Origin: Candidatus Sulfomarinibacteraceae bacterium
GTDB taxonomy: Bacteria > Chloroflexota > Limnocylindria > Limnocylindrales > CSP1-4
DNA length: 60,440 nt
Direction of reading: 5' to 3'
Assembly: GCA_035466655.1 (NCBI GenBank)
Contig: DATIUS010000052.1
Location: 1-60,440, forward strand
Program-made: the position numbers and the translations under genes
Shown: positions 23,057 through 38,377 of the stretch, in pieces
How positions within the stretch are numbered: position 1 is the first letter of the stretch
Layout: each line of letters starts with the position of its first letter
Notes under the pieces: model-generated
Told to the model about the DNA's origin: nothing
Databases searched by the model: none
What the model saw: only the letters and a program-made list of their open reading frames with translations

Positions 23057-23133
23057 GCGCCCGTAGCTCAGCGGACCAGAGCATGTGGCTTCGGACCACA
23101 GGGTCGGGGGTTCGAATCCCTCCGGGCGCGCCA
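23057..23133 (+). tRNA. tRNA-Arg, anticodon UCG, with encoded CCA
   Basis: Hand-folded cloverleaf. Acceptor GCGCCCG/CGGGCGC; D stem GCTC/GAGC; anticodon stem TGTGG/CCACA with loop CT-TCG-GA; T arm GGGGG-TTCGAAT-CCCTC; discriminator G; CCA at 23131..23133. Confidence 0.9.
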
Positions 23134-23134
23134 A
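23119..23134 (+). repeat. att-like core, copy 1 (3-prime end of tRNA-Arg): cctccgggcgcgccaa
   Basis: Exact 16-nt direct repeat with 23354..23369. 14 of its nt, or 15 nt starting at 23118, recur at 38363..38377. Confidence 0.7.
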
Positions 23135-23136
23135 TG

Positions 23137-23281
23137 TCATGAGTCGCGACATCGGCGACACATGTGGTCAGCCAGTCGCTCGAGACCCCGGCCATCGGCT
23201 GATACGGCACTCGGCTGCTGCGGCGGTGACGGAAAGCTGCCCTGAGACGACCTTGAGGACGGCCACGCGGTGCTTCGACAT
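23137..23281 (-). mobile_element. Frameshifted, truncated N-terminal remnant of a transposase (HTH region; looks IS481/IS3-like)
   Basis: Minus-strand ATG at 23281 gives MSKHRVAVLKVVSGQLSVTAAAAECRISRWPGSRATG*. After a frameshift it continues ...ADGRGLERLADH..RR. This resembles the HTH plus GGLEAL...RSRRP N-termini of actinobacterial IS transposases. It ends abruptly at the tRNA boundary. Family assignment is from memory only. Confidence 0.45.
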
Positions 23282-23353
23282 GCGCGGCACTGTCACGCAT
23301 GTCCCGACTCAGGTGTGCCCTATCAGGTGTCACCTATGTCCTGAACTCAGACA

Positions 23354-23369
23354 CCTCCGGGCGCGCCAA
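23354..23369 (+). repeat. att-like core, copy 2: cctccgggcgcgccaa
   Basis: Exact 16-nt direct repeat of the tRNA-Arg 3-prime end, 235 bp downstream, enclosing the transposase remnant. Confidence 0.7.
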
Positions 23370-23711
23370 GGTATCGTCGGCCGCCGGACGAACGCCCTGG
23401 TCACGGACCTATTCCGCGGGCTCGGGGACCACGGGTCCGCTGCGTTGCTCGGATCCGAGCTCACACAATCGATCGTCCTCCTCGTGGTCTATCGCGCGGC
23501 GACTTGCGAAGCAGTGACGGGCAGAGGCGCGGCGGAACGAGAAGTCGATCCTCGACAGCGATCCGGACCTATCGATCCGGTGAACCGACCATCGTTCTGT
23601 CGGATGATCGATTCCCGACTATCGGCGACGCCGGGCGGATGCCCAGCCTGTTTCGGACGGTATGCTGGTGCCCTGGCCGCCTTCGCGCCAGGGAGAGCAC
23701 AGGTTCCCAAC

Positions 23712-24470
23712 GTGAGCTTCGATGTCGCCGCCGAGGCCTACGACGACTTCATGGGTCGATACTCGCGCTTGCTGTCTTGTCAACTGGCAGACCTCGCCTC
23801 GGTGCGCCGAGGGCAGCGAGTCATCGACGTCGGTTGCGGCACGGGCGCGCTCACCGGCGAGCTGGTTGCCCGGCTGGGGCCCGACGCAGTGGCGGCCGTC
23901 GATCCGTCCGAGCCGTTTGTTGCCGCGACGCAGGCGCGCCACCCCGGCGTCGACGTTCGACGCGCGGCTGCCGAACAGATTCCGTTCTCGGATGACGCCT
24001 TCGATGCCGCCCTCGCGCAGCTCGTCGTCCACTTCATGAAGGATCCGGTCGCGGGGCTGACCGAGATGGCCCGGGTGACCCGGCGCGGCGGTGTCGTCGC
24101 CGCGTGCGTGTGGGATCACGGCGGGGTCAATGGACCGCTCCACCTCTTCTGGGACGCTGCGCGTGCGCTCGACCCTGATGTCGACGATGAGTCCGACCTC
24201 CCGGGTGCCCGCGCAGGTCACCTGGCCGAGCTGTTCGGCGCCGCCGGGTTGCGTGAGGTTGCCGATACCGCTCTCTCCGTCCGCCTCGAACACCCGACGT
24301 TCGACGCTTGGTGGAAGCCGTTCACGGCTGGCGTTGGTCCCGCCGGCGCCTACCTGGCAAGCCTCGATGCGGACCAGCGCGTTGCGTTGCGCGACGAGTG
24401 CCGGCGAAGGGTGCCCTCGGAGCCGTTCCCGGTTACCGCCGTTGCGTGGGCGGCGCGCGGACTCGCGTAG
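23712..24470 (+). CDS. Class I SAM-dependent methyltransferase
   Basis: Motif I VIDVGCGTGALT, post-I VDPSE, and Methyltransf_11-like FDAALAQLVVHF. GTG at 23712 was chosen. The upstream part of the track ORF crosses the tRNA. Confidence 0.85.
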   Translation: MSFDVAAEAYDDFMGRYSRLLSCQLADLASVRRGQRVIDVGCGTGALTGELVARLGPDAVAAVDPSEPFVAATQARHPGVDVRRAAAEQIPFSDDAFDAALAQLVVHFMKDPVAGLTEMARVTRRGGVVAACVWDHGGVNGPLHLFWDAARALDPDVDDESDLPGARAGHLAELFGAAGLREVADTALSVRLEHPTFDAWWKPFTAGVGPAGAYLASLDADQRVALRDECRRRVPSEPFPVTAVAWAARGLA

Positions 24471-24557
24471 CGCGGAGCGAGAAGGCGTGCCAGAACAACA
24501 TCGTGGACTTCTCGAGTGGCGAGGCGCCTGCAACTGCGCCCGCCGAAGCGCCTACCG

Positions 24558-24896
24558 CTAGTAGTCCAGCCGCTGGATCCGAGACAGCTCGAAGTTCCGC
24601 AGCCAGACCGAGCCGTATGCCACCCCGATCTTGAGCCTGCCCCGGGCGGTCGGATACGTCGCCACGATGCGGTTCGAGGCGACGTCCACCCGATTGATCT
24701 CCTCCGAGCCGGCCAACCAGACTGCCTCGTCCGTGGCGAAGTTGGAATCCGTCACCCGCCTGGGCCTGGCTCAGCGGCAGGAAGGCCGATCCAGCACCGG
24801 AGATCGGATCGACCCGGAGTAGTCCCCTGGGAGTGCTCACCGCGCCTTCATCCCCAAACAGGGTGAGCCAGAGGGAGTCCGTGCCCTTGCCGCCAG
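24558..24896 (-). pseudogene. Frameshifted C-terminal fragment of a beta-propeller (NHL/YVTN-like) repeat protein
   Basis: Two frames join into blade-like repeats: SLWLTLFGDEGAVSTPRGLLRVDPISG, then AVWLAGSEEINRVDVASNRIVATYP, then GSVWLRNFELSRIQRLDY. No plausible N-terminus or start. Confidence 0.5.
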
Positions 24897-24914
24897 GCAG
24901 GTGCGCCTGCCCTC

Positions 24915-25545
24915 GTGCTTCACGCGACAGACCAGGTCTTCGATCTTTCGTTCGAAGCGCTGCCGTCCAGCCATCACTACGTCGGCCCGCTCGGCATCTG
25001 GGAGCCGCCCAGCATGCCGCCCGATTACCTGGCCGGGCCCGGCGACCCATGGGTGACTCGTCTCGATCAGCTCGCAGTTTCAGGACGACGTGCCGCTAGC
25101 CGAGGCCGCCCTGGAAGCACTCGCTGACCGCCCCGTGCGCGTGGTGCTGACGGTCGGGCCGGACCACAATCCCGGCGAGGTGTCGGCTGTCCCTGCCAAT
25201 ACTCGGGTCGAGCGAACGATCTCGCACGCGGCGGTGCTGCGGCACGGTGCGCTCCTCGTGAGCCATGCCGGCCACGGCTCGGTGATGAAGGCGCTCTGGC
25301 ATGGCCGACCCATGGTCCTGGTGCCATGGGGCCGCGACCAGCCGGGAGTGGTCGTGCGTGCCGCGGCACTCGGCGTCGCTGAGGTCGTGCCTCGTCAGGA
25401 GGCCTCCGGCGAGATGCTCGCCGCAGCGGTGGATCGGGCCCTGACGAACCAGCAGATGCGAGCGACCGCCGCGTGGCACGCGGCAAGACTCCAGGCGGCT
25501 GATCCTCCGAGCGTGGCTGCGACACGCATCGAGTCGCTCCTGTGA
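24915..25545 (+). pseudogene. 5-prime-truncated and frameshifted GT1-family (MGT/UDP-glycosyltransferase-like) glycosyltransferase
   Basis: Frame 1 gives HHYVGPLGIWEPP...GDPWV. After a frameshift near 25050-25060 it continues LVSISSQFQDDVPLAEAAL...VSHAGHGSVMKALWHGRPMVLVPWGRDQP (the C-terminal donor-binding domain). The whole N-terminal acceptor domain is absent. Confidence 0.6.
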
Positions 25546-25617
25546 ATCGGAGATCCAGCTCGCGGGTGAGGTCGAATGAAATCGCCTTGCACCCGCGGGG
25601 ACGGTCGCTGCGCGAGA

Positions 25618-25750
25618 CTTGACGAGCTCGAGGGCGAGGTCAGCTTCAGCCGGGCCGGCCAGACGATCAAGGCGCAGGCGGGAGACTGGACCCACGTCCC
25701 GAGAGGCGCCAGCCACTTCCAGACAGGCATGTCCGGCGCGAGCTACCTCG
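25618..25750 (+). pseudogene. Possible cupin-fold gene fragment
   Basis: EGEVSFSRAGQTIKAQAGDWTHVPRGASHFQ resembles cupin motif 2. There is no motif 1 and no credible start. It lies next to other fragments. Confidence 0.3.
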
Positions 25751-25858
25751 GCGCCATGCACGCCTGGCGGCGAGGAGCCGCGCTTCCGCGAGGTGGCCGC
25801 GAGTTCCGATCGCGAGTGAAGGCCATCGGGCGTGTGAGGCAACGCTCTGGCGCGGATG

Positions 25859-26344
25859 TCATGGGCGCGACGACAGATAGCCCTCCGGCACGGGTCCGAC
25901 GACCTCCATGGCGTACCGCTCGGCGAGAGCACCAAGGTCCTCCGCGGACACCCCCTTCCGGATCGCGTCTGCAAGTTCGTCGAAGTAGCCGACCATCCCG
26001 GCCGGGGTGTAGAGATTGAGCTTGCGACTGCCCGGTTCCACGCTTACGAACGTGTGCACCAATCCCTTCGGCACGTACACGAACGATCCCGAGGGGCAGT
26101 CGAGGTCATGGCCACCGAGATGCATGCGGTATCGACCGGCGAGCACGACGAACGACTCGGCGCAGTCGCGATGGATATGGAGCGGTGGACCCGTTCCGAC
26201 CTCCGTCTCAGTGGTCTCGATCAGGCTGAACGCGCCGTCGGTGAGCTCGCCGTCGGCGAGCACACCGACGACAAAGCTGCCCTCGTCGATCTGCCGACCC
26301 TGACCTCGGAGCAGGACGATGCCTCCGCCCTCGATCGCTGCCAC
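25859..26344 (-). CDS. Cupin domain protein
   Basis: GPPLHIHRDCAESFVVLAGR...SGSFVYVPKGLVHTF contains cupin motifs 1 and 2. Confidence 0.85.
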   Translation of the reverse strand: MAAIEGGGIVLLRGQGRQIDEGSFVVGVLADGELTDGAFSLIETTETEVGTGPPLHIHRDCAESFVVLAGRYRMHLGGHDLDCPSGSFVYVPKGLVHTFVSVEPGSRKLNLYTPAGMVGYFDELADAIRKGVSAEDLGALAERYAMEVVGPVPEGYLSSRP

Positions 26345-26467
26345 GTTCGTCCCTCACTCTCGCCCTCGGGCGACCGGAGGCCGTCGTTCGGCGCCCGCCT
26401 TCGCCACGTCACGGTCATCGAATCTACTCCCTGGCCCCCGTTCGCCTCGCAAAGTCAGCGGCGGGGC

Positions 26468-26486
26468 CCGAGGGCACGCCCCTCGG
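26468..26486 (-). terminator. Short hairpin just downstream of the last gene of the minus-strand operon
   Basis: ccgaggg-cacgc-ccctcgg (7-bp stem), 9 nt beyond the stop at 26495. No U tract. Weak call. Confidence 0.3.
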
Positions 26487-26494: not shown

Positions 26495-27322
26495 TCAATA
26501 CGGTTGGATCAGTGCTCGCCAGAGGAGCGCGATCCCGACCGCGGTCGCCTGGAGGTCGACGAGGATGTACGCGCGGCCGACGGGCTCGATGATAAGGAGG
26601 CCCCGCCCGCTCCGGTGGAGGATCGGGACCAGAGCCTGGATCCCGAGGGCCGTCGCGTTCAGCACGAAGACGACCAGCGTGAGCGCGAGCAGGTTCTCCG
26701 CGCCCGACCCGCCTGCGCCAAGGCCCGGTACGAAGACACTCGACAGCATGGCGAGGCAGATGCCGATGACCGGGAGGGCGAAGGCCTCGCGGGATCGCAA
26801 CATCCCGATGCGGACGCAGATGCTCGACACGATGAGCCAGCCACAGAGCGCGGCCGCTCCGAGCAGCCAGGCGAGCAGGTTCGCCGGTCCGGTGAGACCG
26901 AACGTATCCATCAACGGCTTCAGCGCCAACCACGCGAGGAACAGCGTCCGGTAGTGCTGGAGCCCCGCGACGGTGGCAAGGAGGCGCGGCAGCAGGGCCC
27001 CTTCGGACCCTCCTTCGATCGGCAGGAAGATCAGCTGGATCGCGAGGCCCACGAACGAGAGGAAAGCGACCAGGAACATCGTCAGGACCGTGTCGAAGGC
27101 CTGCGGATCGACCGTCGATTGATTGCGCACGAGCGTGACGAGGAGCACGATCGCGGTGACCGAGATCGCCGCCTGCCCGCTGATCAACGGGATCGTCCGT
27201 CGAGCGACATCAGCCAGGTCCCAGGGCGCGGGCGAAAGATCCACGCGCTCGTGCCGGCCGAGCCAGCTGGCCAGCGGCGTTGTGACTCCGACGATGACGA
27301 TCAGCGCAACGAAGGCAGGCAT
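26495..27322 (-). CDS. Polytopic integral membrane protein, hypothetical
   Basis: About 7 hydrophobic helices. ATG at 27322 (MPAFVALIVIV) is preceded by GGAGGAGCG. The track ORF starts upstream at 27433, so the start is uncertain. Confidence 0.7.
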   Translation of the reverse strand: MPAFVALIVIVGVTTPLASWLGRHERVDLSPAPWDLADVARRTIPLISGQAAISVTAIVLLVTLVRNQSTVDPQAFDTVLTMFLVAFLSFVGLAIQLIFLPIEGGSEGALLPRLLATVAGLQHYRTLFLAWLALKPLMDTFGLTGPANLLAWLLGAAALCGWLIVSSICVRIGMLRSREAFALPVIGICLAMLSSVFVPGLGAGGSGAENLLALTLVVFVLNATALGIQALVPILHRSGRGLLIIEPVGRAYILVDLQATAVGIALLWRALIQPY

Positions 27323-27505
27323 CGCTCCTCCGCGATCGTCGGCCGACCCATTGGCGGGAGGGCCGCGTCGCCGAACATCCTTGCGCGACTCGGACGCCAT
27401 GACAAGATCGTCCGGGGCCGCGCTCGACCCCATAGTGCGACGTTCCTTCGACCATCCGGTCGGCCCGGCGAAAGCCTGGCCCTCGTGCCGGGCGACGCGC
27501 CGTAC

Positions 27506-27985
27506 CTACTCGACGATCACGACTCCGCGCATGCGGGCATCCCAGTGACCCGGAACATGGCAGCCCAGCAGCACCTCGCCCGGCTGATCGAACGTCACGA
27601 TCAGCTCCGCGGTCTCGCCCGGCTCGACGAGCACGGCGATGCCGTGGTCGCGCATCTCCAGGGAGCCGGATCCATCGAAGAACAGGCGCATCTGCTGCTC
27701 GTGGCGCTCCTGTGCTTCGAGGTCGCCCACGGTCAGATCGTGGATCACCGCCCCGGCGTTGTGAACGACGATGCGCACCGTCTCCCCAAGCCGGACGACG
27801 ACGCTGTCCGGCTCGAAGCGCATCGCGTCGGTGGTCGTGAGCCGGACGATGCGTGGCTCGCCGCCGGGACTGCCTGCGGTCCCTCCGCCGATGTCGGTCG
27901 GTGCGGCACCGGCACTCCCGGGGCCGCACCCGCTGATGGCGGCCGCAAGGAGAGCCACGAGCGAGACACCGCTGCTCCCGGCCAT
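27506..27985 (-). CDS. Azurin/plastocyanin-like type-1 copper protein (cupredoxin), lipoprotein
   Basis: Lipobox LLAAAISGC. Candidate type-1 Cu ligands: H in VVHNAGAVIHDL, then CHVPGHWDARM (Cys-x4-His-x4-Met). Confidence 0.85.
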   Translation of the reverse strand: MAGSSGVSLVALLAAAISGCGPGSAGAAPTDIGGGTAGSPGGEPRIVRLTTTDAMRFEPDSVVVRLGETVRIVVHNAGAVIHDLTVGDLEAQERHEQQMRLFFDGSGSLEMRDHGIAVLVEPGETAELIVTFDQPGEVLLGCHVPGHWDARMRGVVIVE

Positions 27986-28008
27986 GTTCGCCGCCCGTGC
28001 CCCCGAGG

Positions 28009-29580
28009 CTACGGGGTGATCTCGAAGGCCAGATGGAACGCGGGCAGGACCTCACCCGGATGGTCGTCCGCGTAGGTGAGCTGCGGGATCCGGAAGTTGT
28101 ACACGCCCTCGACGTCGGTCCCCTTGTAGAGACCGGGGTAGAAGTCGATGTAGTGGATCCCGGGCTCGCCCGTCGCGGGCAGGAAGATCGTGATGTTGCC
28201 CTGGGCGGTCACTGAGCACGAGTACCCGAGCATCGCGTTGTCGTACACGAGCATCAAGATCTTGCCCGTGTCGGTGTCGTCGACGCCCTGGATGTTGATC
28301 TCGATCTCGGTGCCCACGGGTCCCCGGGCAGGCGAAAGCGCCAGCACGGACGGCCGGACGCGGAGCGCCGTGTTCGCGACGATCTTGTCTCCGCTGACCA
28401 GGGATATCTCGTGGCTGCCGCCCTTGTCCTTGGGAACCTCGAAGTCAGCCCGGAAGGCGCCCGAGGCGTCGCTCGTGACCGTGCCGATCTCCCAATCCGC
28501 GTCGGGGCGAGCCTGACCGGTGCCCCCGATGATCCCGGTGTCGACGCCGACCTGGGTCTTCCAGAGGACGTCGAACGTGGTCCTGGCCGGCAGGCCCGCC
28601 CCTTCCAGGACGAACGACGCGCCGACAGTGGCCTCGACGCGGTCGGGCCACACGACCGGGCCCGTTCCGGCCGGTCGCTCGGCTCGATCCGACGACACGA
28701 TCGCCTGCGTCTCGGCAGGCGGCGGCAGGATGGGCTGCCCGTCGGTGACGGTGAAGATCGCGGTGTAGGTCGGGCGGGTCGGATCCGGCGACTGAGCCGG
28801 GTTGAGGTAGGGGAACGTGAATGAGCCGTGGACGATCTTGATCACGTGCTTGCCAGGCCCGCCGGTGGCCGGGATGACCGCCCTGGCGTGCCCTTGGGTC
28901 GTGACCGACGACAGCCAGCCCGTGAAGCGGTTGTCGTAGGTGACGAGCCAGCTGCGCGTCAGGCCCGTCACGCCGACGCCCTTGACGTCGATCGTGATCG
29001 GCGTGCCCGGTGGGCCGCTCGACGGGGTGACGCTGAACTGCATGTCCACCTTGAAGGCTGCCTGGTTGCGAACGACGCCTTCCTCGAGAACTCGGACGTC
29101 GTGGCCGAAGCCAAACCCCTCGGGGACCTCGAACGAGGCGCTGAACGCCCCGCCCGCGTCAGTTCGGGCGGTGGTCAGGGGAACGAGCTCCTCGTCGTAG
29201 GCCCGCCCCTTGAAGTTGGCGGGATCGGCCATGTCAACCTTCCAGCTGCCGCGGAAGGCCTGCCACACCAGCTGCATCTCGACGTTCGGGCTGAAGCCGC
29301 TGCCGGAGGCGGTGACGTTCGTGCCCGGCTGGCCGTGCTTGGGCGCAAGCGCGAACTCACCGACGTATGCGATCGGGGCGGGGGTGGCGGGGGCGGCGGG
29401 GGCGGCGGTCGGCTGGCTTGCGGCGGTCGGCTGATTTGCGGCGCCAGCCGCCGGGGCAGTCGATCCGGGATCCTGGCCCGGCGTGCCGGCTGCCCCGGCG
29501 CCGACAGTCACTAGCCCTGCCCCGACCAGCGCGCCGAGGAGAAGCAGGGTCACACTTGACGGGATACGTGTGCGATCCAT
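28009..29580 (-). CDS. Secreted protein with repeated Ig-like (IPT/TIG-like) domains and an Ala/Pro/Thr-rich linker
   Basis: Signal/anchor VTLLLLGALVGAGLVTVGA. Linker NQPTAASQPTAAPAAPATPAP. Internal duplication: VTPSSGPPGTPITIDVKGVG...VTYDN...SVTTQGHARAVIPATGGPGKHVIKI versus LSPARGPVGTEIEINIQGVD...LVYDN...SVTAQGNITIFLPATGEPGIHYIDF. Confidence 0.8.
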   Translation of the reverse strand: MDRTRIPSSVTLLLLGALVGAGLVTVGAGAAGTPGQDPGSTAPAAGAANQPTAASQPTAAPAAPATPAPIAYVGEFALAPKHGQPGTNVTASGSGFSPNVEMQLVWQAFRGSWKVDMADPANFKGRAYDEELVPLTTARTDAGGAFSASFEVPEGFGFGHDVRVLEEGVVRNQAAFKVDMQFSVTPSSGPPGTPITIDVKGVGVTGLTRSWLVTYDNRFTGWLSSVTTQGHARAVIPATGGPGKHVIKIVHGSFTFPYLNPAQSPDPTRPTYTAIFTVTDGQPILPPPAETQAIVSSDRAERPAGTGPVVWPDRVEATVGASFVLEGAGLPARTTFDVLWKTQVGVDTGIIGGTGQARPDADWEIGTVTSDASGAFRADFEVPKDKGGSHEISLVSGDKIVANTALRVRPSVLALSPARGPVGTEIEINIQGVDDTDTGKILMLVYDNAMLGYSCSVTAQGNITIFLPATGEPGIHYIDFYPGLYKGTDVEGVYNFRIPQLTYADDHPGEVLPAFHLAFEITP

Positions 29581-29629
29581 CGCATCAACCTCGCTTACCT
29601 CGGCTGCTGGCCCTGGGTTTCTTCGCTGA

Positions 29630-30214
29630 CTACTCGGGGATGACCGGCCGCACGTCGTCGGTGACGGTCAACATGGCGAACGGGATCGGAAATTGCTCGA
29701 AGCTGCCCGTTCGGCCGTCAATCCCCTCCGCGGTGAGCGTGTAGGGGACGGTTCCGCTCGGGAAGCCCTCGGGCACGACCCAAGAGGTCGTCCAGAAGCT
29801 TTCGAGCGGGTTGTCACGCGGGTGGGGTCCATAGCGGAGCGCGAGCGTCTCGGTCGGGAGCTTGAGCTCGACCGAGGCCACGGCCGTGTCGTCCAGCCGC
29901 TCACCCGTCGCCCCGTCGATGACCCGGACGCGCCACACGATCTGCTCGTTGTGTGCGAACTTGTTCAACTGGATGCAGATCTTCTGCCCGCGCTCGGCCT
30001 CGGTCAGGTTCTTCGGCCCGAGGACCGTGTCGGTCTGGATCACCAGAGCGGCCGGCGGGACAGGCTCTTCCGTGGCAGCCACGGGCGACGGCGTCGGCGC
30101 CACGGTGGTGGGGCTAGCTGTAGCCCCGCCACCGGGTGGGGTTGCCGAGCCACAGGCCGCCACCAGCACCCCGATCATGAGTGCGGCGAACGTTGTCGGA
30201 ATCCAGCGTGTCAT
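29630..30214 (-). CDS. Lipoprotein, hypothetical (beta-rich/Ig-like)
   Basis: Lipobox GVLVAAC. ATG at 30214 is preceded by GGGAGGACGGTGC. High GC3. Confidence 0.75.
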   Translation of the reverse strand: MTRWIPTTFAALMIGVLVAACGSATPPGGGATASPTTVAPTPSPVAATEEPVPPAALVIQTDTVLGPKNLTEAERGQKICIQLNKFAHNEQIVWRVRVIDGATGERLDDTAVASVELKLPTETLALRYGPHPRDNPLESFWTTSWVVPEGFPSGTVPYTLTAEGIDGRTGSFEQFPIPFAMLTVTDDVRPVIPE

Positions 30215-30240
30215 GCACCGTCCTCCCTAGTCGCGAGGCC

Positions 30241-30852
30241 TCAGCGGCCCAGCAGCCTCTTGCTAAACCTGCCCTGTCGTTCCGCCCGACCGCCCGTCGC
30301 GGCGATAGCGCTCGCCCTGGAGATGCCGAGCACGACGCGAAGCAGCACGAGAACCAGAAGGCCCGACACGGACAGCGCAATGCCGGCCGCGACGGGACCT
30401 GCCCACGCCCCCACGACCGTCAGTCGCGCAGGGGGTGGGGCGAGTGGTGACACGGCATCGGCAACCTCGAGGACGGCCTCGTTGGAGACCGCCGTGCCGT
30501 CGTCGAACGAGGTTCGAGCGACGATCCGATGCAGTCCGTTCCACGTCGGCCGATAGGTGAACCTCGCCGTCCCGCTCGTGTCCGTTTCGCCCGTGCCGAG
30601 GAGGACCGGGCGGACGCCGAGGAACTCAACCGTCGCGCTGAACCTCACCAGGTGGCGGCCGATCGCTCCCGAGGATCGATCGCGGAGCCGGGCTTCAAGC
30701 AGCCATGCACCCTCGGCCATGGGCTGGGCGGACAGGCTGAACTCCGCGTTGGCGTGCGAGGCGGCCGCGGGCAGGACCGGCCCGAGCGCGAGCACGAGCA
30801 GCGCGGCGACGGCGGCCGACAAGACCAGGGTCACCGGTCCGAGGCGCTTCAT
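30241..30852 (-). CDS. Exported protein with a signal peptide, one Ig-like domain and a C-terminal TM anchor
   Basis: MKRLGPVTLVLSAAVAALLVLALGPVLPAAAS. C-terminal TM VAAGIALSVSGLLVLVLLRVVL. The start ATG overlaps the nrfD-like stop as TGATG. Confidence 0.75.
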   Translation of the reverse strand: MKRLGPVTLVLSAAVAALLVLALGPVLPAAASHANAEFSLSAQPMAEGAWLLEARLRDRSSGAIGRHLVRFSATVEFLGVRPVLLGTGETDTSGTARFTYRPTWNGLHRIVARTSFDDGTAVSNEAVLEVADAVSPLAPPPARLTVVGAWAGPVAAGIALSVSGLLVLVLLRVVLGISRASAIAATGGRAERQGRFSKRLLGR

Positions 30853-32234
30853 CAGGCGATACCTTCTGGCGTTGGTGCCGCGAGCGCCGGCCGTGGCGTG
30901 TCGTCGGCGGCCGCTTCGCCCCTCGCTGCGGCTTCGGCGGCCGCGGCTTCCTCGATCTCGTCGATCGCGAGGATCGGGACGAACCGGAACAGGAGCATCA
31001 GCCCGAGCGCGATCCCCGCCGTCGCGGCGGCCGTGATGAGCAGCGGGACCCAGGTGAAGACTGCCGTGCCCCATGGCCCGGCGTCATCGATCAACGGCAG
31101 CGTCGACGACGGCAGCGTGATCAACAGGCGCTTGAGCCACATGCCGACAACCGCGAAGGCCGCGGCCAGTGCGAGGGCCGCGACCCGGCGCCGGGTCGGC
31201 AGCGCGATCAGGGCGATCGGGGCCAGCAGGCCGAACGCAATGAAGCCCCAGAAGGCCGGGGCGTAGGCCCCCTCGAGCAGCGTGACCACGACCGGCAGCT
31301 CCTCTCGGGTGCCCGCGTAGGCCGTGGTGAGGAGCTCGGAGAATGTGAGGTACAGGTACACGAGCCCAAGGGCGGCCATCATCCAGGCCAGCGACAGGAT
31401 CTGGCGCGGCGTGATAAAGGCCTCGAGCCGATAGGCCCGCCGAAACGCGGCCACGACGAGAATGACCAGGCCGACGCCGGAGTACAGCGCCCCGACGACG
31501 AAGTAGGGCCCGAAGATCGTGCTGTGCCAGCCCGGCCGCGTCGTCATCGAGAACGTGTAGGCCAGCACCGAGTGGACTGACACGGCCAGCGGCACGACGA
31601 GAATGGCCACGATCGCGATCCCCCAGCGCAGCCGCTGTCGCTGTTCGTCGAGGCCCTGCCAGCGGATCGCCAGCATGCGGCTCAGGCGGCCCCGGAAGGA
31701 GGCCGTCGGCAGGCGGTCGCGCAGGCGTGCCATGTCCGGGATGAGCGGCAGATAGAGGAAGATCACTGTCGCGGTCAGGTAGATCGTGATGGCCAGGAAG
31801 TCCCACACGATCGGCGAGCTCAGGTTGCCGGAGATCAGGATCAGGAACACCCGCTCCGGCCGGCCGAGATGGACGATCGCGAAGGCGCCGCCGACGATGA
31901 GCGCCACGACCGCCATCGCCTCCGCCATTCGGCTGAGGGGCGCCCCCCAGCGCGCATTCACGAGGCGCAGGACCGCCGACACGACGGCTCCGCCATAGCT
32001 CACCCCGATGAACGCGACGAGGTTCGCCTCGTAGATGCCGTAGAAGGCGCGGTCGGAGTAGCCGGCGACCCACATGCCCTCGGTGAACTGGTAGACGAAC
32101 GCCGCCACGCCGCCGAGGACGATGATGGCCAGCAGGGCAGCGACCGGCCAGAACCAGCGACCGGGGGAGAAGATCGGCCGGAAGGCCGCCGCCTCGAGGG
32201 CGTCGGTGTCGAGTCGGGCAGGGTGTCCGATCAT
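30852..32234 (-). CDS. NrfD/PsrC/DmsC-family polytopic membrane subunit (quinone-interacting anchor of CISM-type complexes)
   Basis: About 10 TM helices with an NrfD-like pattern: long first loop, HLGRPERVF, WDF. ATG at 32234, 10 nt after the nrfC-like stop. Confidence 0.8.
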   Translation of the reverse strand: MIGHPARLDTDALEAAAFRPIFSPGRWFWPVAALLAIIVLGGVAAFVYQFTEGMWVAGYSDRAFYGIYEANLVAFIGVSYGGAVVSAVLRLVNARWGAPLSRMAEAMAVVALIVGGAFAIVHLGRPERVFLILISGNLSSPIVWDFLAITIYLTATVIFLYLPLIPDMARLRDRLPTASFRGRLSRMLAIRWQGLDEQRQRLRWGIAIVAILVVPLAVSVHSVLAYTFSMTTRPGWHSTIFGPYFVVGALYSGVGLVILVVAAFRRAYRLEAFITPRQILSLAWMMAALGLVYLYLTFSELLTTAYAGTREELPVVVTLLEGAYAPAFWGFIAFGLLAPIALIALPTRRRVAALALAAAFAVVGMWLKRLLITLPSSTLPLIDDAGPWGTAVFTWVPLLITAAATAGIALGLMLLFRFVPILAIDEIEEAAAAEAAARGEAAADDTPRPALAAPTPEGIA

Positions 32235-32244
32235 CGGCCTGTCC

Positions 32245-33105
32245 CTAGAACCCCAGATCCTCGCCGTGGCCGAGGATGTACCAGACCCGCGGGCCGGTGT
32301 TGAGCTCTTCGCGGTAGCGGAGCGCGTGGTGTTCCCGAAGGAACGTCGACAGGCGGACCGTCTCGGCGCCGTTGGTTGCCACGTCCGCGTCGAGGTCGCC
32401 GATGTAGATCGCCTCCATCGAGCATGCCGTGACGCACGCCGGCAACTCGCCGCGCGATGTCTGGTGGACGCAGAACGTGCACTTGCCCACGGTCCCCTTG
32501 CGCTGCGGCGCGGGGAACTCCGGAGTCGGAACAACCGGCAACGGTGGGCGGCGGGTCGGCTCAATCCAGTTGAAGTAGCGGGCCTCGTACGGGCAGGCCG
32601 CCATGCACAGCCGGCAGCCGATGCAGCGGTCCTGGTCGACGAGCACGGTCCCGCCGGCCGTCTTGAATGACGCTCCGACTGGGCAGACCCGGAGGCACGG
32701 TGCGTCCTCGCAGTGCATGCACAGGCGCGGCATGAAGTACTCGGTGCCGGCCTGGGTGTGGAGGTTGTAGACCTTCAGCCAGGTCTGTTCGGGCTCGAGA
32801 TAGTGGGTCGTCTGGCAGGCCTCGGTGCACTTCTCGCAGCCGTCGCAGCGGCGAAGGTCGATGACCATCGCCCAACGGCGCGTGGCGCCCTCCTGATCAG
32901 CCGAGGCGTGGGCCGGAGAGACGACGTCGAGGAGATCGACCAGCCCGCTGACGTGCGCCCCGGTCGCTCCGATGGCGGCGAGAGACGCTCCCGCGCCCAC
33001 GGCGGCCAGCGAGCGAAGCAGGGTGCGCCGAGAGACGGCCCTGGGAAGGCCCTGCTCGGCGACGGCGGAGATGGCGGCCGGCGGGGACGTCTCCCGTGTT
33101 TCCAT
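32245..33105 (-). CDS. Tat-exported 4x[Fe-S] ferredoxin subunit of the NrfC/HybA/DmsB family
   Basis: Twin-arginine signal SRRTLLRSLAAVGAGASLAA. Cys clusters CDGCEKCTEAC, CMHCEDAPCLRVCP, CIGCRLCMAACP and CTFC...CVTAC. Confidence 0.88.
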   Translation of the reverse strand: METRETSPPAAISAVAEQGLPRAVSRRTLLRSLAAVGAGASLAAIGATGAHVSGLVDLLDVVSPAHASADQEGATRRWAMVIDLRRCDGCEKCTEACQTTHYLEPEQTWLKVYNLHTQAGTEYFMPRLCMHCEDAPCLRVCPVGASFKTAGGTVLVDQDRCIGCRLCMAACPYEARYFNWIEPTRRPPLPVVPTPEFPAPQRKGTVGKCTFCVHQTSRGELPACVTACSMEAIYIGDLDADVATNGAETVRLSTFLREHHALRYREELNTGPRVWYILGHGEDLGF

Positions 33106-33264
33106 TGCAGCTCCCGGCGGAACGCAATGCCATCATCGAGGGCGGGGTTCGTCCGCTACATCCGTGAACCGCGCGAACCGTTCTGCGGCCGTCCGCAGGC
33201 CCGCGGCGGGAACCCGCACCTGCCGGCGGAGCGCGACGCGGTGTAGAGTCGGCCAAGGGATGCC

Positions 33265-33921
33265 GTGGACCGACTGACCGTCCTGCTGGCCGAAGACCAC
33301 GCCGTGGTCCGAGAGGGAATGCGCGAGATGATCGAGCGTGACCCTGGGATCTCGGTAATCGGCGAGGCGGCGGACGGCGCCGCGGCCGTGGCGCTGGCGG
33401 CCGAATTCGCGCCGGATCTCGTGCTCCTCGACCTGGGCCTGCCGGTTCTCAACGGCCTCGAGGCCGCGCGTCGCATCCGGCAGCTGCCGCGACCGCCGCG
33501 GATCCTGATGCTCAGCGCCTACGACGACGACGACTACGTCGTGGCGGCCATCGAGGCCGGCGCGAACGGCTATCTACTCAAGACGGCGCACATGAAGGAC
33601 ATCATCGCGGCGATCCGGTCCGTCGCCCTCGGCGAGGTCGTGCTCGACCCGGCCGTCGCGCGGAAGCTGATCGGCCGGAGCACCCAGCCGGCGACGACGG
33701 GTGACGTGCTGTCGGCTCGCGAGCTCCAGGTCCTCCGGCACGCGGCCCGAGGCGCACGGACGAAGGAGATCGGCAATCTCCTGTCGGTCAGCACGCGGAC
33801 CGTGGAGGCGCACTTCACCAGCATCTTCAACAAGCTCGGCGTCTCGAGTCGAACCGAGGCGATCGTCCACGCCGCGTCGCGGGGCTGGCTGGTCCTCGAG
33901 CGCGACTGGCCCCTGCAATGA
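33265..33921 (+). CDS. NarL/FixJ-family response regulator (REC plus LuxR-type HTH), canonical
   Basis: Acidic pocket LLAEDH, phospho-acceptor LVLLDLGLP, MLSAY, YLLK. HTH: LSARELQVLRHAARGARTKEIGNLLSVSTRTVEAHFTSIFNKLGV. GTG start. Confidence 0.9.
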   Translation: MDRLTVLLAEDHAVVREGMREMIERDPGISVIGEAADGAAAVALAAEFAPDLVLLDLGLPVLNGLEAARRIRQLPRPPRILMLSAYDDDDYVVAAIEAGANGYLLKTAHMKDIIAAIRSVALGEVVLDPAVARKLIGRSTQPATTGDVLSARELQVLRHAARGARTKEIGNLLSVSTRTVEAHFTSIFNKLGVSSRTEAIVHAASRGWLVLERDWPLQ

Positions 33922-35396
33922 CCAGCATCTCGATGCGGCTCGCGCGTCGCCGGCTCGCGTCGCCGCATCGCTGGCTGCGGATCGTGCTGCGGCGCTGGTG
34001 GCCGCCGCTCCGGCGACCGGAGTTCTGGGCGACGCAGGCGCTGGTATTCGTCATTGCAGCTGGTCACGTCGTGCTCGAGATGCTGGAAGTGCCCGGGCTC
34101 AAGCACCTCAACCTGGTCCCGGTCTCACTGTTCCTCGTCCCGGTGATCTATTCGGCGCTCAATTTCGGCCTGCGCGGCGCCGGCCCGACCGCGATCTGGT
34201 GCGGGCTGCTTGCGCTGCCCAACATCGTGTTCTTGCACCCAGGCGCCGATCGCTTCGCCGAGATCTGGCAGGCCGGCCTCGTCGTGGTCGTCGGCCTGGT
34301 CGTCGGACAGCGGATCGACCGGGAGCAGCGAGCGCGGGCGGACGCCCAGCGTCGCGAGCGGGCCAGGCGATCCTCTGAGGAGCGCTACCGGCGGCTGTTC
34401 GAGTCGACCGCGGATCCGATCATGCTGCTGCGGCACGGCGGGACGGTCGAGGAGGCGAACACCGCGGCGGCGATGCTGTTCGGGGTCGCCCGCAGCGATC
34501 TCGCCGGGCGCCGGTTGGAGGACCTCGCCGATCCCGAGCTGGCCATCGCGGTCGAGGCCGCCGACCCGGGCTCAGGCAGCGAGGAGGCCGTCCGCCTCGC
34601 CGACTCGACCGGCCGGATGCGCTGGTTCGAGCCGGTCGTCGCCGACTTCGAGGCCCGTCCCGGCCGGATCCAGGTCGTCCTGCGGGATGTCACCGCGCAG
34701 CAAGAGCGCCAGGCGGGGCTGGAGGCCTACACCCGGCAGACGATGGCTGCCCGCGAAGAGGAGCGCCGCCGGATCGCCCGCGACCTCCATGACGGACCGG
34801 TCCAGGAGCTGGTCCTGCTGTGGCGGGGCCTGGACGAGCTCGGCGACTCGGCTACGGGACAGAATCGCGTGCGGCTCGCGGACGCACGCGCCCTGGCCGA
34901 GCGAATCGCCAACGACCTGCGCCGCATCAGTCGCGACCTGCGACCGTCGCTGCTCGATGATCTCGGCCTCGGGCCGGCGCTGAACGCCGAGTGCGCGGCC
35001 TTCAGCGCATGCTCCGGGATCGCCGCACGCTACGTGGAGACTGGCGCGCCGCGCCGCCTGGCGACCGACATCGAGCTGATGCTGCTGCGCATCGCCCAAG
35101 AGGCGCTCCACAACGTCGACCGGCATGCCCGCGCTCGGACGGCGACGGTACGGCTGACCTTCCGGGCCGGATCGGTCCGTCTCTCGGTAACCGATGACGG
35201 CGTTGGCTTCAGCGGCTCGACGGACAACCGCGCCCTCCTCGCCGAGGGCAAGCTCGGCATCGTCGGGATGCGCGAGCGGGCGCGGCTTGCGGGCGGCGAG
35301 CTGACGCTCCGGAGCGCTCGCAACCGCCGGACCACCGTTTCGGTGCTCGTCCCCGCGTCGCGTCTAGCGGCCGTCCGTCCCGGGGGAGCAGCTTGA
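33918..35396 (+). CDS. Sensor histidine kinase (membrane N-terminus, PAS, HisKA_3, HATPase_c)
   Basis: Four N-terminal TM helices. PAS-like ERYRRLFESTADPIMLL. H-box EEERRRIARDLHDGPVQ. N/G boxes EALHNVDRHA and DDGVGF...GIVGMRERA. ATGA overlap with the response regulator gene. Confidence 0.9.
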   Translation: MTSISMRLARRRLASPHRWLRIVLRRWWPPLRRPEFWATQALVFVIAAGHVVLEMLEVPGLKHLNLVPVSLFLVPVIYSALNFGLRGAGPTAIWCGLLALPNIVFLHPGADRFAEIWQAGLVVVVGLVVGQRIDREQRARADAQRRERARRSSEERYRRLFESTADPIMLLRHGGTVEEANTAAAMLFGVARSDLAGRRLEDLADPELAIAVEAADPGSGSEEAVRLADSTGRMRWFEPVVADFEARPGRIQVVLRDVTAQQERQAGLEAYTRQTMAAREEERRRIARDLHDGPVQELVLLWRGLDELGDSATGQNRVRLADARALAERIANDLRRISRDLRPSLLDDLGLGPALNAECAAFSACSGIAARYVETGAPRRLATDIELMLLRIAQEALHNVDRHARARTATVRLTFRAGSVRLSVTDDGVGFSGSTDNRALLAEGKLGIVGMRERARLAGGELTLRSARNRRTTVSVLVPASRLAAVRPGGAA

Positions 35397-36250: not shown

Positions 36251-36356
36251 CTGCAGCAACCTCCTCTTGTTGTGATCCGATCCGGTTTCCCGCGCCGGCC
36301 CGACCGCGCGCTCGCGTCGCCCGGCACGCGCTCGCCCGGATCTCCGAATGGGTCCA

Positions 36357-36998
36357 TCAGGATGAGCCCACGACGCGTTGGTCCAGGGCCGGTCGGAGTC
36401 GCGCCAGCCGGGCGTGGCCCTCGACGAGCACGACCGACGCCACCGCGACGACTCCGGCGAGGATGACGAGTTCCTTGGCCACCGCGGGCGTGCCGCCGAG
36501 CAGCGGGATGTTGTGGCCCGGGCCGATGGCGAAGGCAAAGGCGGCCAGGGCTGTCGCCCCGGTGGCCCGGCGGGTCCGGGCGATGAACCAACCGAGCCCG
36601 GCGCCCGTGATGGTCGCCGTGCCCAGCAACTCGACGACGACGATCGCCATAGCCTCCGCGCCCGGGACGAGGAAGGTCCCCCCACCGTCTTCGTCCATCG
36701 CGAAGATCGGCGCGCGAAGCTCCGCGATGACGAGGGCGGGGAGCAGGACTGCACCGACCAGGACGATCACGGCGATCGCGGTCCAGGGCCGTCGCGGAAG
36801 GTGGGGCCGCAGCTCCTCGTAGGCTGCGCCCACCGCCGCACCGCCAGCCGCTGCGACGAGGACACCGATAGGGGCGATGGACCAGATCGGGGCGATCCAT
36901 ACATGGTGGAGCAGCAGGAAGGTCACGAACCCTATGAGCCCCGCTGCCGCGCCGGCCTGCACCGACGCCACCCGCGACTGGCCTGCGTCCATCGCCAT
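36357..36998 (-). CDS. Integral membrane protein, hypothetical
   Basis: About 6 TM helices. High GC3. It starts 19 nt after the SRPBCC gene stop. Confidence 0.7.
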   Translation of the reverse strand: MAMDAGQSRVASVQAGAAAGLIGFVTFLLLHHVWIAPIWSIAPIGVLVAAAGGAAVGAAYEELRPHLPRRPWTAIAVIVLVGAVLLPALVIAELRAPIFAMDEDGGGTFLVPGAEAMAIVVVELLGTATITGAGLGWFIARTRRATGATALAAFAFAIGPGHNIPLLGGTPAVAKELVILAGVVAVASVVLVEGHARLARLRPALDQRVVGSS

Positions 36999-37017
36999 GC
37001 TTCCGAAGTCCTTGGCC

Positions 37018-37467
37018 CTACGAGACCGCGGGAGAGCTGGAGACGAGTGAGACCAGCCGGTCGACCTCGCGGTTACCTGCGGTGTGTGGCCCCGGCTCGA
37101 CCCATCGCCGATCGATCCAGCGGCCGATCGGACCGAGCGGGACCGTCCATTCAGTCGAGATCTCCAGGTCCGTGCCGCCGCCGTCCGGGGCCGAGAGCGT
37201 CGCGACCATGCGGTACGAGGCGCCGAGCGGGCCGGTCGCGACGATCTCGTACAGGCGTCCCGGTTCGGACCGGATCACCCGGGTGGAGAACCGCCAGGGC
37301 CCGCGGATGACCAGGGTGTACCGTGTCCCGGCGACATCGAGCGGGCCGGAGAGGTCGGCGACCGCCGACGCCTCCATCCAGTCCGCCACGAGGTCCGGGT
37401 CAGTGAAGCCGCGGAAGACCTGGTCGGGCGAGGCTCCGATTCGGCGGGTGTACCGATGCCGTCCCAC
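37018..37467 (-). CDS. SRPBCC (START/polyketide cyclase-dehydrase-like) family protein
   Basis: The pattern IGASPDQVFRGFTDPDLVADWM... is typical of the AHSA1/SRPBCC family. GTG start is preceded by AGGAGGAG. Confidence 0.75.
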   Translation of the reverse strand: MGRHRYTRRIGASPDQVFRGFTDPDLVADWMEASAVADLSGPLDVAGTRYTLVIRGPWRFSTRVIRSEPGRLYEIVATGPLGASYRMVATLSAPDGGGTDLEISTEWTVPLGPIGRWIDRRWVEPGPHTAGNREVDRLVSLVSSSPAVS

Positions 37468-37517
37468 GCTCTGGTCTCCTCCTGCTCGCGGGGCCTGCGG
37501 CAGCCCCGACGTGCGCA

Positions 37518-37546
37518 GTATTATTTACCTGACTATGGCAAGTCAA
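37518..37546 (-). promoter_or_regulatory. Candidate sigma70-type promoter (TTGACT-17 nt-TAATAC, minus strand) overlapping a palindrome, TGACTatggcaAGTCA, that could be the TetR operator
   Basis: This is the only AT-rich patch in the 96-bp divergent intergenic region between the SRPBCC operon and the tetR-like gene. Palindrome at 37530..37545. Confidence 0.4.
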
Positions 37547-37562
37547 CAGAATCATTGACGCG

Positions 37563-38192
37563 ATGCCCAGGAGCTATCGACTCGGTCTACGCGCGGCCCA
37601 GATCCAGGCAACTCGGGAGCGGATCGTCGAGGCTGCCATCGAGCTCTACACGGAGCTGGGAATCTCCGGCACCACGATCCGACAGGTTGGCCTGCGTGCG
37701 GACGTGGCGCCCGGGACGCTGCGGCACCACTTCCCCTCGCGCGAAGCGCTCGACGCAGCAATGGTCGAGCGCCTGACGGCCGAGGCGCCGCTTCCCGACC
37801 TCACCATCTTCGACGGCGCCCGGTCGATCGAGGAGCGCCTCGAGCGTCTCATCCTGGCGACCGGGACGTTCTTCGATCAGAGCGCACGGATCTACCGGAT
37901 GTGGCTTCGCGAGCGGATGCTCACCAGGGTCTGGACGGAGACCGGGGCCGCGTACGGGGCAAGGTGGGAGGAGCTGATCCAAGCAGCACTCGGGATCCTG
38001 ACCGATGATCCAGACGCCTCGGCGACCCTGCGAGCCATCCTCGATCCCCCACTGTTCGAGCGAATGCGCTCAGGCACGAGGACAACCGGGGAAGTGTGCG
38101 CCCTGATCACGTCGGTGATCACGCCGTGGTTCGCAGCCCGAGCCGCTGATCGCCACCGCGCGAGCGAGCGGGAGACCGTCGTCGACGACTGA
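37563..38192 (+). CDS. TetR/AcrR family transcriptional regulator
   Basis: N-terminal HTH: RERIVEAAIELYTELGISGTTIRQVGLRADVAPGTLRHHFPSREAL. Confidence 0.88.
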   Translation: MPRSYRLGLRAAQIQATRERIVEAAIELYTELGISGTTIRQVGLRADVAPGTLRHHFPSREALDAAMVERLTAEAPLPDLTIFDGARSIEERLERLILATGTFFDQSARIYRMWLRERMLTRVWTETGAAYGARWEELIQAALGILTDDPDASATLRAILDPPLFERMRSGTRTTGEVCALITSVITPWFAARAADRHRASERETVVDD

Positions 38193-38362
38193 CCTTCGGG
38201 ACGGCCATGGATCTTCGGGATGTGCACGGATACGCGGCTTCGCACCTCGAGGCGCACGAGCCCTGCTTGATCTGGGCCCGTTTGGCGTCAAGGCAGACCA
38301 GCCTGACGCACGTCATTCGCCGTGAAGCCGGCAAGCCGAGCGGGCCGTTCCTGCGCCCGACG

Positions 38363-38377
38363 CCCTCCGGGCGCGCC
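38363..38377 (+). repeat. att-like core, copy 3: ccctccgggcgcgcc (15-nt exact match to tRNA-Arg positions 23118..23132)
   Basis: Same orientation as the tRNA copy. It lies in a 440-bp non-coding stretch at the far edge of the accessory block. Confidence 0.5.

What the first reader, a model, noticed from the sequence alone, without database searches (positions are those of the whole stretch)
23057..38377. About 15 kb tRNA-Arg-linked island bracketed by copies of the tRNA 3-prime end, with decayed mobility genes
The last 16 nt of tRNA-Arg plus one flanking base (cctccgggcgcgccaa, 23119..23134) recur exactly at 23354..23369. A 15-nt version (ccctccgggcgcgcc, matching 23118..23132) recurs in the same orientation at 38363..38377, inside a 440-bp gene-free stretch.

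I made a rough estimate assuming independent bases at about 35% each for G and C. A specific 15-mer of this composition should then occur by chance on the order of 0.01 times in both strands of a 60-kb window. GC-rich motif bias makes that figure optimistic.

Between copies 1 and 2 lies a frameshifted transposase HTH remnant. Just upstream of copy 3, the + strand reads MDLRDVHGYAASHLEAHEPCLIWARLASRQTSLTHV. This loosely resembles the C-terminal box II of tyrosine recombinases (HxLRH...LLEAG...LLGH...YTHV) and could be an integrase relic.

The bracketed block has the lower-GC patches, four gene fragments, and the NrfCD-cupredoxin operon with its own two-component system. This is the classic footprint of site-specific integration into a tRNA gene followed by decay.
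Basis: partly seen in the sequence, partly recalled or inferred. Interest (0 to 1): 0.6.

Follow-up and report, generated by a model that had tools for sequence, protein, structure and literature searches.

The report
IS481 scar at tRNA-Arg, not island
The two close copies of the tRNA-Arg end are the footprint of a small, gutted jumping gene that lands right behind tRNA genes. The third copy 15 kb away has nothing to show it is the far edge of an inserted island, so the "island" is better read as an ordinary, much-rearranged stretch next to a tRNA.

Summary
All three repeats exist at the stated coordinates.

**Copies 1 and 2** (23119 and 23354, 16 nt) are the target-site duplication of a 219-bp, internally deleted IS481-family element (23135-23353). 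It keeps TGT...ACA inverted repeats and the first 34 transposase codons. Full 1.3-kb relatives carry an HTH + rve transposase. They sit 25-26 nt after the start of the T-loop box, about 1 nt past the CCA, of many different tRNA genes, flanked by 15-17-nt duplications. This scan already noted this tRNA-targeting IS481 behaviour on other DNA (e1-4628656, e1-2258873). I did not find it described in the papers I could search.

**Copy 3** (38363, 15 nt) is not part of a repeat family, but it is weak evidence.
- Equally long matches occur inside genes, including one at 41700 in this window.
- My chance estimate is 0.01-0.05.
- No IS end, integrase remnant or longer tRNA similarity adjoins it.

**The block itself** does not behave as one insertion.
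- The composition anomaly covers only 22.5-32.5 kb, and codon usage of the real genes is normal.
- The TetR trio is also linked to tRNA-Arg in another species.
- The Nrf-like/two-component module is a separate unit that sits elsewhere in a related contig.

A single 15-kb integrase-borne island is therefore not supported. No closely related genome without the block was available.

The parts
23057..23133 (+). tRNA-Arg(TCG), intact, CCA encoded
   Evidence: ARAGORN. Syntenic with the left-flank genes in more than 10 species of the genus.
23119..23134 (+). Copy 1: last 15 nt of the tRNA plus 1 nt; left copy of the target-site duplication
23135..23353 (-). Internally deleted IS481-family element (219 bp). 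Left inverted repeat 23135-23160, right inverted repeat 23328-23353, deletion joint near 23196-23199. About 1.1 kb is missing, including the DDE domain.
   Evidence: Both ends align to the 1.3-kb copy in G043:C28 and to 10+ other full copies at 80-91%. Termini are TGT...ACA.
23195..23296 (-). First 34 codons of the transposase (HTH part), then truncated
   Evidence: tblastn with the G043 transposase: 85% over residues 1-34. The full protein has HTH_32/HTH_28 + rve + rve_3.
23354..23369 (+). Copy 2: right copy of the 16-bp target-site duplication
   Evidence: Relatives show 15-17-nt duplications of whichever tRNA end they sit behind.
23712..24470 (+). Intact class I SAM methyltransferase, the only copy in the genome
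   Evidence: Pfam Methyltransf_11 at 8e-21. Single copy. Its best relative in G068 sits behind a 49-nt tRNA-Arg fragment.
24912..25542 (+). Pseudogene: C-terminal 210 residues of a GT1/GT28-type glycosyltransferase, frameshift near 25055, N-terminal half missing
   Evidence: tblastn with the 383-aa G048 homologue gives 73% in two frames. Pfam on the homologue.
25862..26353 (-). Cupin gene, apparently intact
   Evidence: Cupin_2 at 1e-9. Aligns at 54% identity to residues 7-156 of a 157-aa relative.
26495..35396 (.). Accessory module: NrfC/NrfD-like pair, three exported proteins and a cupredoxin (- strand), with a divergent LuxR-type response regulator and PAS histidine kinase (+ strand)
   Evidence: Pfam. 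Kept as one unit in two metagenome contigs. NrfD is found in only 7 of 65 other genus genomes, at <=41%.
36357..38192 (.). Conserved trio: unknown membrane protein, SRPBCC protein and divergent TetR regulator
   Evidence: Pfam. Found as a trio in G037, G006 and six metagenome contigs (the other four are too short or show TetR only). In G037 it lies 6.7 kb downstream of tRNA-Arg(TCG).
38363..38377 (+). Copy 3: 15-nt match to tRNA positions 61-75, sitting in a hairpin (7-nt arms, 8-nt loop); origin unresolved, probably chance
   Evidence: Fold z-score 0.47. No Rfam hit. No similarity to an IS end.

Best explanation
**What happened at the tRNA.** An IS481-family insertion sequence with a DDE transposase landed 1 nt behind the CCA end of tRNA-Arg(TCG). 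Its staggered cut duplicated the last 15 nt of the tRNA plus one base, which produced copies 1 and 2. The element then lost about 1.1 kb of its interior. What remains is a 219-bp shell with both inverted repeats and 34 transposase codons.

**How the family targets tRNAs.** Across two phyla the element sits at a fixed 25-26 nt from the start of the T-loop box (GGTTCGAxTCC). I infer from this that the transposase reads that conserved DNA. This step is inferred, not shown.

**What the 15 kb is.** It is not one inserted element but a mosaic:
- a methyltransferase gene that lies at other loci in other species;
- a 1.4-kb stretch of gene debris;
- a self-contained accessory Nrf-like/two-component module;
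- a conserved TetR trio.

**Copy 3.** It is most likely a chance match inside a G+C-rich hairpin of a convergent intergenic region.
For: **Anatomy of the element**
- Both ends match full-length copies, with TGT...ACA termini and a perfect 16-nt flanking duplication.
- The full-length transposase has HTH_32/HTH_28 + rve + rve_3.

**Targeting of tRNA ends**
- In the genus, 11 of 17 left ends abut an ARAGORN-called tRNA: Arg-TCG, Arg-CCG, Arg-TCT, Lys, Val, Ala and Gln. One of these is on contig C224 of this genome.
- Among 79 relatives from Chloroflexota and Actinomycetota, 51 abut a called tRNA.
- 66 of the 79 start 25-26 nt from the T-loop box. Exact 15-17-nt duplications flank 36 of the 72 copies with both ends found.
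- TSDs of about 15 bp and TGT...ACA termini are known for an IS481 subgroup (PMC10045372).

**Against one island**
- No PF00589 hit in the window at E<=10. The ORF at 38207 has no Pfam hit.
- Only the 5-kb windows spanning 22.5-32.5 kb are atypical in composition (lowest 4-8% of the genome for GC); the next window, 30-35 kb, is at the 22nd GC percentile and the 90th for tetranucleotide distance.
- The Nrf genes have normal GC3 (0.86-0.91) and normal codon bias.
- The trio lies downstream of tRNA-Arg in G037 too.
- The Nrf module sits next to homologues of window 56.6-58.3 kb in contig L107.
- 15-nt matches also occur inside genes.
Against: - Copy 3 is the only intergenic 15-nt match in the genome. 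It is in direct orientation downstream of the tRNA, with a chance estimate of 0.01-0.05.
- G037 has a similar 14-nt intergenic direct copy 4.2 kb downstream of its tRNA-Arg. Such copies may therefore be scars rather than chance.
- Synteny breaks right after the TetR gene in G037, which is where copy 3 lies in the window.
- No genome closer than about 80% nucleotide identity (apart from a 99.8% twin) was available, so an empty site could not be looked for.
- Recognition of the T-loop box by the transposase is inferred from positions only.
Confidence: 0.65

Rival explanations
1. A 15.2-kb island integrated by a tyrosine recombinase into the 3' end of tRNA-Arg. Copy 3 is the distal att repeat and the integrase has decayed beyond recognition. 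The IS landed at the rebuilt tRNA end later.
For: - Copy 3 is direct, intergenic and unique.
- GC is low next to the tRNA.
- The Nrf operon is patchy in the genus.
- A 49-nt tRNA-Arg 3' fragment in G068, beside an Mrr-type nuclease gene, shows that longer tRNA-end scars of the kind integrases leave occur at this tRNA in the genus.
Against: - There is no integrase signal at E<=10 and no Pfam hit for the proposed relic.
- Identity stops dead at 15 nt; a decayed longer repeat would show scattered mismatches instead.
- The composition anomaly ends 5 kb before copy 3, and codon usage is normal.
- The trio at the supposed right end is linked to tRNA-Arg in G037, with no repeat after it.
- None of about 15 relatives has the right-hand flank genes behind this tRNA.
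Confidence: 0.1
2. Copy 3 is an orphan target duplication of the same IS family. A second copy once lay to its left and was lost after an IS-mediated insertion or recombination. On this reading the block was assembled behind the tRNA by the IS, not by an integrase.
For: - Tandem arrays of the form IS-duplication-IS occur in G006:C43, G074 and L107.
- Several full copies are flanked by the ends of two different tRNAs (L108, L124, L126, L127, L134, L136). This is what recombination between copies at different tRNA genes would produce, and it moves orphan duplications around.
- L107 carries an IS scar with a tRNA-Gln-type duplication right beside the Nrf module.
- G037 has 12- and 14-nt copies behind IS remnants.
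Against: - No IS-end similarity exists on either side of the block: not at 23370 and not left of 38363.
- A perfect 15-nt duplication beside a completely erased inverted repeat is unlikely.
- Copy 3 lacks the final A of the CCA, which every duplication behind a CCA-encoding tRNA gene includes.
Confidence: 0.17

Closest known systems
IS481 family insertion sequences, the subgroup with ~15-bp target duplications (and eukaryotic IS481EU)
   Same: - A single HTH + rve (DDE) transposase, TGT...ACA termini and a size of about 1.3 kb.
- 15-17-bp duplications.
- These traits are described for part of the family in PMC10045372.
   Different: - Classical IS481/IS1002 make 6-bp duplications at NCTAGN (own knowledge).
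- Here the target is the 3' end of tRNA genes at a fixed distance from the T-loop box. I did not find this described in three literature searches.
- The window copy is a 219-bp deletion derivative.
tRNA-linked genomic islands and integrative elements (tyrosine recombinase, attL/attR from the tRNA 3' part)
   Same: An intact tRNA with a direct repeat of its 3' end downstream; variable DNA behind the tRNA.
   Different: - No integrase.
- The well-supported repeat pair brackets 219 bp, not 15 kb.
- The duplication is made by a staggered DDE cut rather than by crossover within a shared core.
Casposons (Cas1-driven transposons)
   Same: They insert at the 3' end of a tRNA gene with a 14-15-bp target duplication (own knowledge; strong site preference reported in PMC5137440, seen).
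   Different: Unrelated enzyme (Cas1 rather than an RNase-H-fold DDE), much larger elements, one preferred tRNA.
Eukaryotic tRNA-gene-targeting retrotransposons and Dada DNA transposons (Ty3, Dictyostelium TRE, Dada)
   Same: They use tRNA genes as safe landing sites at fixed distances (titles and abstracts of PMC5006619, PMC5911963 and PMC3706591).
   Different: Targeting there goes through Pol III factors or the RNA gene body. Here it is a bacterial DNA element landing just behind the gene, which stays intact.

Membership tests
tRNA-integrated genomic island (tyrosine-recombinase type) | Intact tRNA gene at one boundary | tested here: met
   tRNA-Arg(TCG) at 23057-23133
tRNA-integrated genomic island (tyrosine-recombinase type) | Distal direct repeat of the tRNA 3' part, clearly beyond chance | tested here: inconclusive
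   15 nt at 38363. The genome holds two other 15-nt and three 14-nt chance matches, one of the 15-nt ones inside the LAL gene of this window. Estimate 0.01-0.05.
tRNA-integrated genomic island (tyrosine-recombinase type) | Integrase gene or recognisable remnant | tested here: not met
   PF00589 six-frame search finds nothing in the window at E<=10. The ORF at 38207-38545 has no Pfam hit at E<=1.
tRNA-integrated genomic island (tyrosine-recombinase type) | Empty site (flanks adjacent) in relatives | tested here: inconclusive
   66 genus genomes were searched. None is close, except a 99.8% twin with the same layout. No relative has the right-flank genes behind tRNA-Arg.
tRNA-integrated genomic island (tyrosine-recombinase type) | Foreign composition across the whole block | tested here: not met
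   Only the 5-kb windows spanning 22.5-32.5 kb are clearly atypical; the windows from 32.5 kb on are ordinary. Gene-level GC3 and codon bias are normal.
IS481 family insertion sequence | Single transposase with N-terminal HTH and rve DDE core | tested here: met
   The full copy in G043 has HTH_32, HTH_28, rve and rve_3. The window keeps only codons 1-34.
IS481 family insertion sequence | Terminal inverted repeats starting TGT and ending ACA | tested here: met
   23135 begins TGTCATGAG and 23353 ends CTCAGACA, with ~26-nt imperfect repeats.
IS481 family insertion sequence | Flanking target-site duplication of family-typical length (6 bp, or ~15 bp in a subgroup) | tested here: met
   16 bp here. 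Relatives: 15 nt in 13, 16 nt in 21 and 17 nt in 2. Literature: PMC10045372.
MITE (amplified non-autonomous derivative) | The same short derivative present in many copies | tested here: not met
   The genome holds only this copy plus a solo left repeat with transposase debris on C224. Short forms in relatives have different deletion joints.

The most novel reading that the evidence does not exclude
A subgroup of IS481 transposases reads the T-loop box of tRNA genes and inserts 1 nt behind the CCA. By repeated landing, recombination between copies at different tRNA genes, and decay, it builds tRNA-linked variable regions that mimic integrase islands. On this reading copy 3, and the extra copies in G037, are orphan duplications of lost elements.
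Probability: 0.17. Interest if true: 0.6.

Novelty: new variant of a known kind. Interest (0 to 1): 0.35.

Why it matters
**For annotation.** A short direct repeat of a tRNA 3' end is routinely taken as proof of an integrase-borne island. Here the well-supported repeat pair is made by a DDE transposase and brackets 219 bp. Island callers that rely on tRNA-end repeats would mis-size or invent islands in Chloroflexota and Actinomycetota that carry this IS family.

**For biology.**
- A bacterial IS that lands at a fixed distance from the T-loop box of almost any tRNA gene, and leaves the gene intact, uses the same safe-landing-site strategy as eukaryotic tRNA-targeting retroelements.
- Its mixed-flank copies suggest that it drives rearrangements between tRNA loci.

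The 15-kb block itself is ordinary.

Tried and rejected
- **Unusable tblastx.** tblastx without low-complexity filtering on this 72% G+C DNA gave only noise. I replaced it with ORF-based blastp and tblastn.
- **Inversion hypothesis.** I asked whether the methyltransferase plus a beta-propeller fragment (24561-24770) are an inverted copy of the tRNA/ORF5xx/MT arrangement seen in G060 and G012. The fragment does not match those genes, so I dropped it.
- **Methyltransferase as native flank.** I first read the methyltransferase as the ancestral neighbour of tRNA-Arg. This was weakened on three counts:
  - The gene lies in at least three other contexts in the genus and is missing from its MsrA/phosphatase locus here.
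  - The tRNA-adjacent copies in G060, G017 and G012 are a more distant group.
  - The spacers in G068 and in the window do not align.
- **Luciferase-like gene as ancestral neighbour.** The homologue of 50656-51573 near tRNA-Arg in G006 is a paralogue; the orthologue lies elsewhere.
- **Copy 3 region.** Rfam search and folding found nothing significant.
- **Metagenome scan with TetR.** It returned only short contigs with a variable downstream side.


Full report
**Setting**

The window is contig C52 of a 2.67-Mb, 329-contig metagenome-assembled genome with 71.7% G+C. The best matches of its mobile element and of its NrfD gene are in Chloroflexota (Candidatus Limnocylindrales and Chloroflexia MAGs). 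I did not establish the organism's taxonomy independently.

- ARAGORN finds one tRNA, Arg(TCG), at 23057-23133.
- The 16-mer made of its last 15 nt plus one base recurs at 23354.
- A 15-mer shifted by one base recurs at 38363, in a 439-bp gene-free spacer between the convergent TetR gene (ends 38192) and a 167-aa gene (38632-39135, - strand).

**Copies 1 and 2 are a transposase footprint**

- Sequence 23135-23199 and 23196-23353 recur in many contigs of the genus, often exactly at contig ends, as multi-copy repeats do.
- In G043:C28 the two pieces are separated by about 1.1 kb. That stretch encodes a 328-aa protein with HTH_32/HTH_28, rve and rve_3 domains, which is the IS481-type layout.
- The window element is therefore a 219-bp internal-deletion derivative. 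It keeps both ~26-nt inverted repeats (TGT...ACA) and, on the - strand, transposase codons 1-34 (85% identity).
- The 16-mers abut its two ends without a spacer.

**The family lands behind tRNA genes**

- In the genus, 11 of 17 left ends follow the CCA of a called tRNA by one base: Arg-TCG, Arg-CCG, Arg-TCT, Lys-CTT, Val-TAC, Ala-CGC and Gln-CTG. The tRNA-Gln case is on contig C224 of this genome.
- The right junctions carry a 15-16-nt copy of whichever tRNA end is at the left.
- A scan of one genome per species returned 80 relatives (66-87% protein identity) from Limnocylindrales/Chloroflexia, Solirubrobacterales, Microbacterium and others.
  - 51 of the 79 with a recognisable left repeat abut a called tRNA.
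  - 66 of the 79 start 25-26 nt from the first G of the T-loop box.
  - Exact duplications of 15-17 nt flank 36 of the 72 copies with both ends found.
- The distance holds even where the tRNA gene does not encode CCA. The measure is therefore taken from the T-arm, not from the CCA. That the transposase reads the box is my inference.
- Termini of TGT...ACA and ~15-bp duplications are documented for part of the IS481 family (PMC10045372).
- tRNA targeting did not turn up in three literature searches.
- Two earlier notes of this scan report the same behaviour on other genomes.

**Copy 3 is weak**

- It is not part of a repeat family: there are only five 14-mer occurrences genome-wide.
- Matches of equal length to the tRNA's last 25 nt lie at 41700-41714 (- strand, inside the LAL regulator gene) and at C228:12497. 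Three 14-nt matches lie inside genes.
- From those rates I expect 0.01-0.05 such matches in the window.
- Upstream of copy 3, similarity to the tRNA ends abruptly. A 7-nt complement of the acceptor strand lies 8 nt upstream, so the 15-mer sits in a local hairpin. That fold is no better than shuffled sequence (z 0.47), and Rfam finds nothing.
- Neither side of the supposed island resembles an IS end.
- The proposed integrase relic gives no Pfam hit at E<=1. A six-frame PF00589 search finds only two Xer-like genes on other contigs.

**The block is a mosaic**

- *Composition.* 5-kb windows spanning 22.5-32.5 kb fall in the lowest 4-8% of the genome for GC and the top 4-6% for tetranucleotide distance. 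The 30-35 kb window is intermediate (22nd GC percentile, 90th for tetranucleotide distance), and windows from 32.5 to 40 kb are ordinary.
- *Codon usage.* The Nrf-operon genes have GC3 of 0.86-0.91 and unremarkable codon bias. The dip comes from low first-position GC in exported and membrane proteins, and from the 24.5-25.9 kb stretch without clean frames.
- *Debris.* That stretch holds the C-terminal 210 residues of a GT1/GT28 glycosyltransferase with a frameshift. The cupin gene at 25862-26353 appears intact.
- *Methyltransferase (23712-24470).* It is intact and single-copy. It is absent from the MsrA/phosphatase locus where two other species keep it. Its nearest relative, a frameshifted copy in G068, lies 123 nt behind a 49-nt 3' fragment of tRNA-Arg that has an Mrr-type nuclease gene on its other side.
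- *Nrf-like operon with its divergent two-component system.* It is kept as a unit in two metagenome contigs at about 74% nucleotide identity. In one of them (L107) it is followed by an IS right end, a tRNA-Gln-type duplication and another left repeat, and then by homologues of window 56.6-58.3 kb. The module therefore occupies different places in related genomes. In the genus, NrfD occurs in 7 of 65 other species, at <=41%.
- *Trio 36357-38192.* It is conserved widely. In G037 it lies 6.7 kb downstream of the same tRNA-Arg, behind different genes. G037 also shows an IS left remnant and 12- and 14-nt partial copies of the tRNA end, but none after its TetR gene.
- *Region behind this tRNA in other species.* It differs in every other species examined.
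- *Same-species twin.* An ENA contig of the same species (99.8%) has the identical layout.

**Verdict**

The site-specific insertion that the repeats record is a gutted tRNA-targeting IS481 element of 219 bp. A single 15-kb integrase-borne island is not supported.

A middle reading is that copy 3 is an orphan duplication left by a lost IS copy. It gains plausibility from tandem arrays, and from IS copies flanked by the ends of two different tRNAs, but it has no direct support at this locus.

Noticed in passing
L108, L124, L126, L127, L134, L136 (full IS copies in Chloroflexota MAGs): These IS copies have the 3' end of one tRNA at the left and the duplicated end of a different tRNA at the right (for example Arg-CCG on the left and Arg-TCG or Gln on the right). 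This is the pattern expected after recombination between IS copies sitting at different tRNA genes, that is, large rearrangements.
   Followed up: partly
L046 (G068:C287) 5114-5161: A 49-nt 3' fragment of tRNA-Arg(TCG), from the anticodon stem to the CCA, that ARAGORN does not call as a tRNA. An Mrr_cat nuclease gene lies upstream and a frameshifted methyltransferase downstream. It looks like a true integrase-type att scar. No island integrase was found in this 66%-complete genome.
   Followed up: partly
own genome, contig C224 519-913: tRNA-Gln(CTG) is followed 1 nt later by a solo left inverted repeat of the same IS, and then by decayed transposase fragments (residues 92-141).
   Followed up: partly
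window 38458-38511 (- strand): An 17-codon ORF (MAFTSARAQMLVAFSYGL) with a GGAGG 6 nt upstream. It lies just downstream of the 167-aa gene on the same strand. It could be a small peptide gene or leader. Not tested.
   Followed up: no
L107 (ENA farmland contig) 7050-7480: Right behind the last gene of the Nrf-like operon there is a transposase HTH remnant, an IS right end, a tRNA-Gln-type 16-nt duplication and a second left repeat. The contig has no tRNA.
   Followed up: partly
window 29417: The 99.8% identical ENA strain has an extra 18 bp in frame in the 523-aa Ig/TIG-domain protein.
   Followed up: no
window 41700-41714 (- strand): A 15-nt match to the tRNA-Arg T-loop/T-stem/acceptor segment lies inside the LAL regulator gene. 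It serves as a useful internal control for chance matches.
   Followed up: yes
L018 (G006:C43) 126-200: A 39-bp mini-element made only of a left repeat fused to the last bases of the right repeat. It is flanked by tRNA-Arg-type duplications and sits in tandem behind a larger copy.
   Followed up: partly
window 26495-33105: The closest named relatives of the NrfD-like protein are Chloroflexota (52-56%). Unnamed metagenome proteins reach 81%. The operon lacks a catalytic molybdopterin subunit and ends in a cupredoxin.
   Followed up: no
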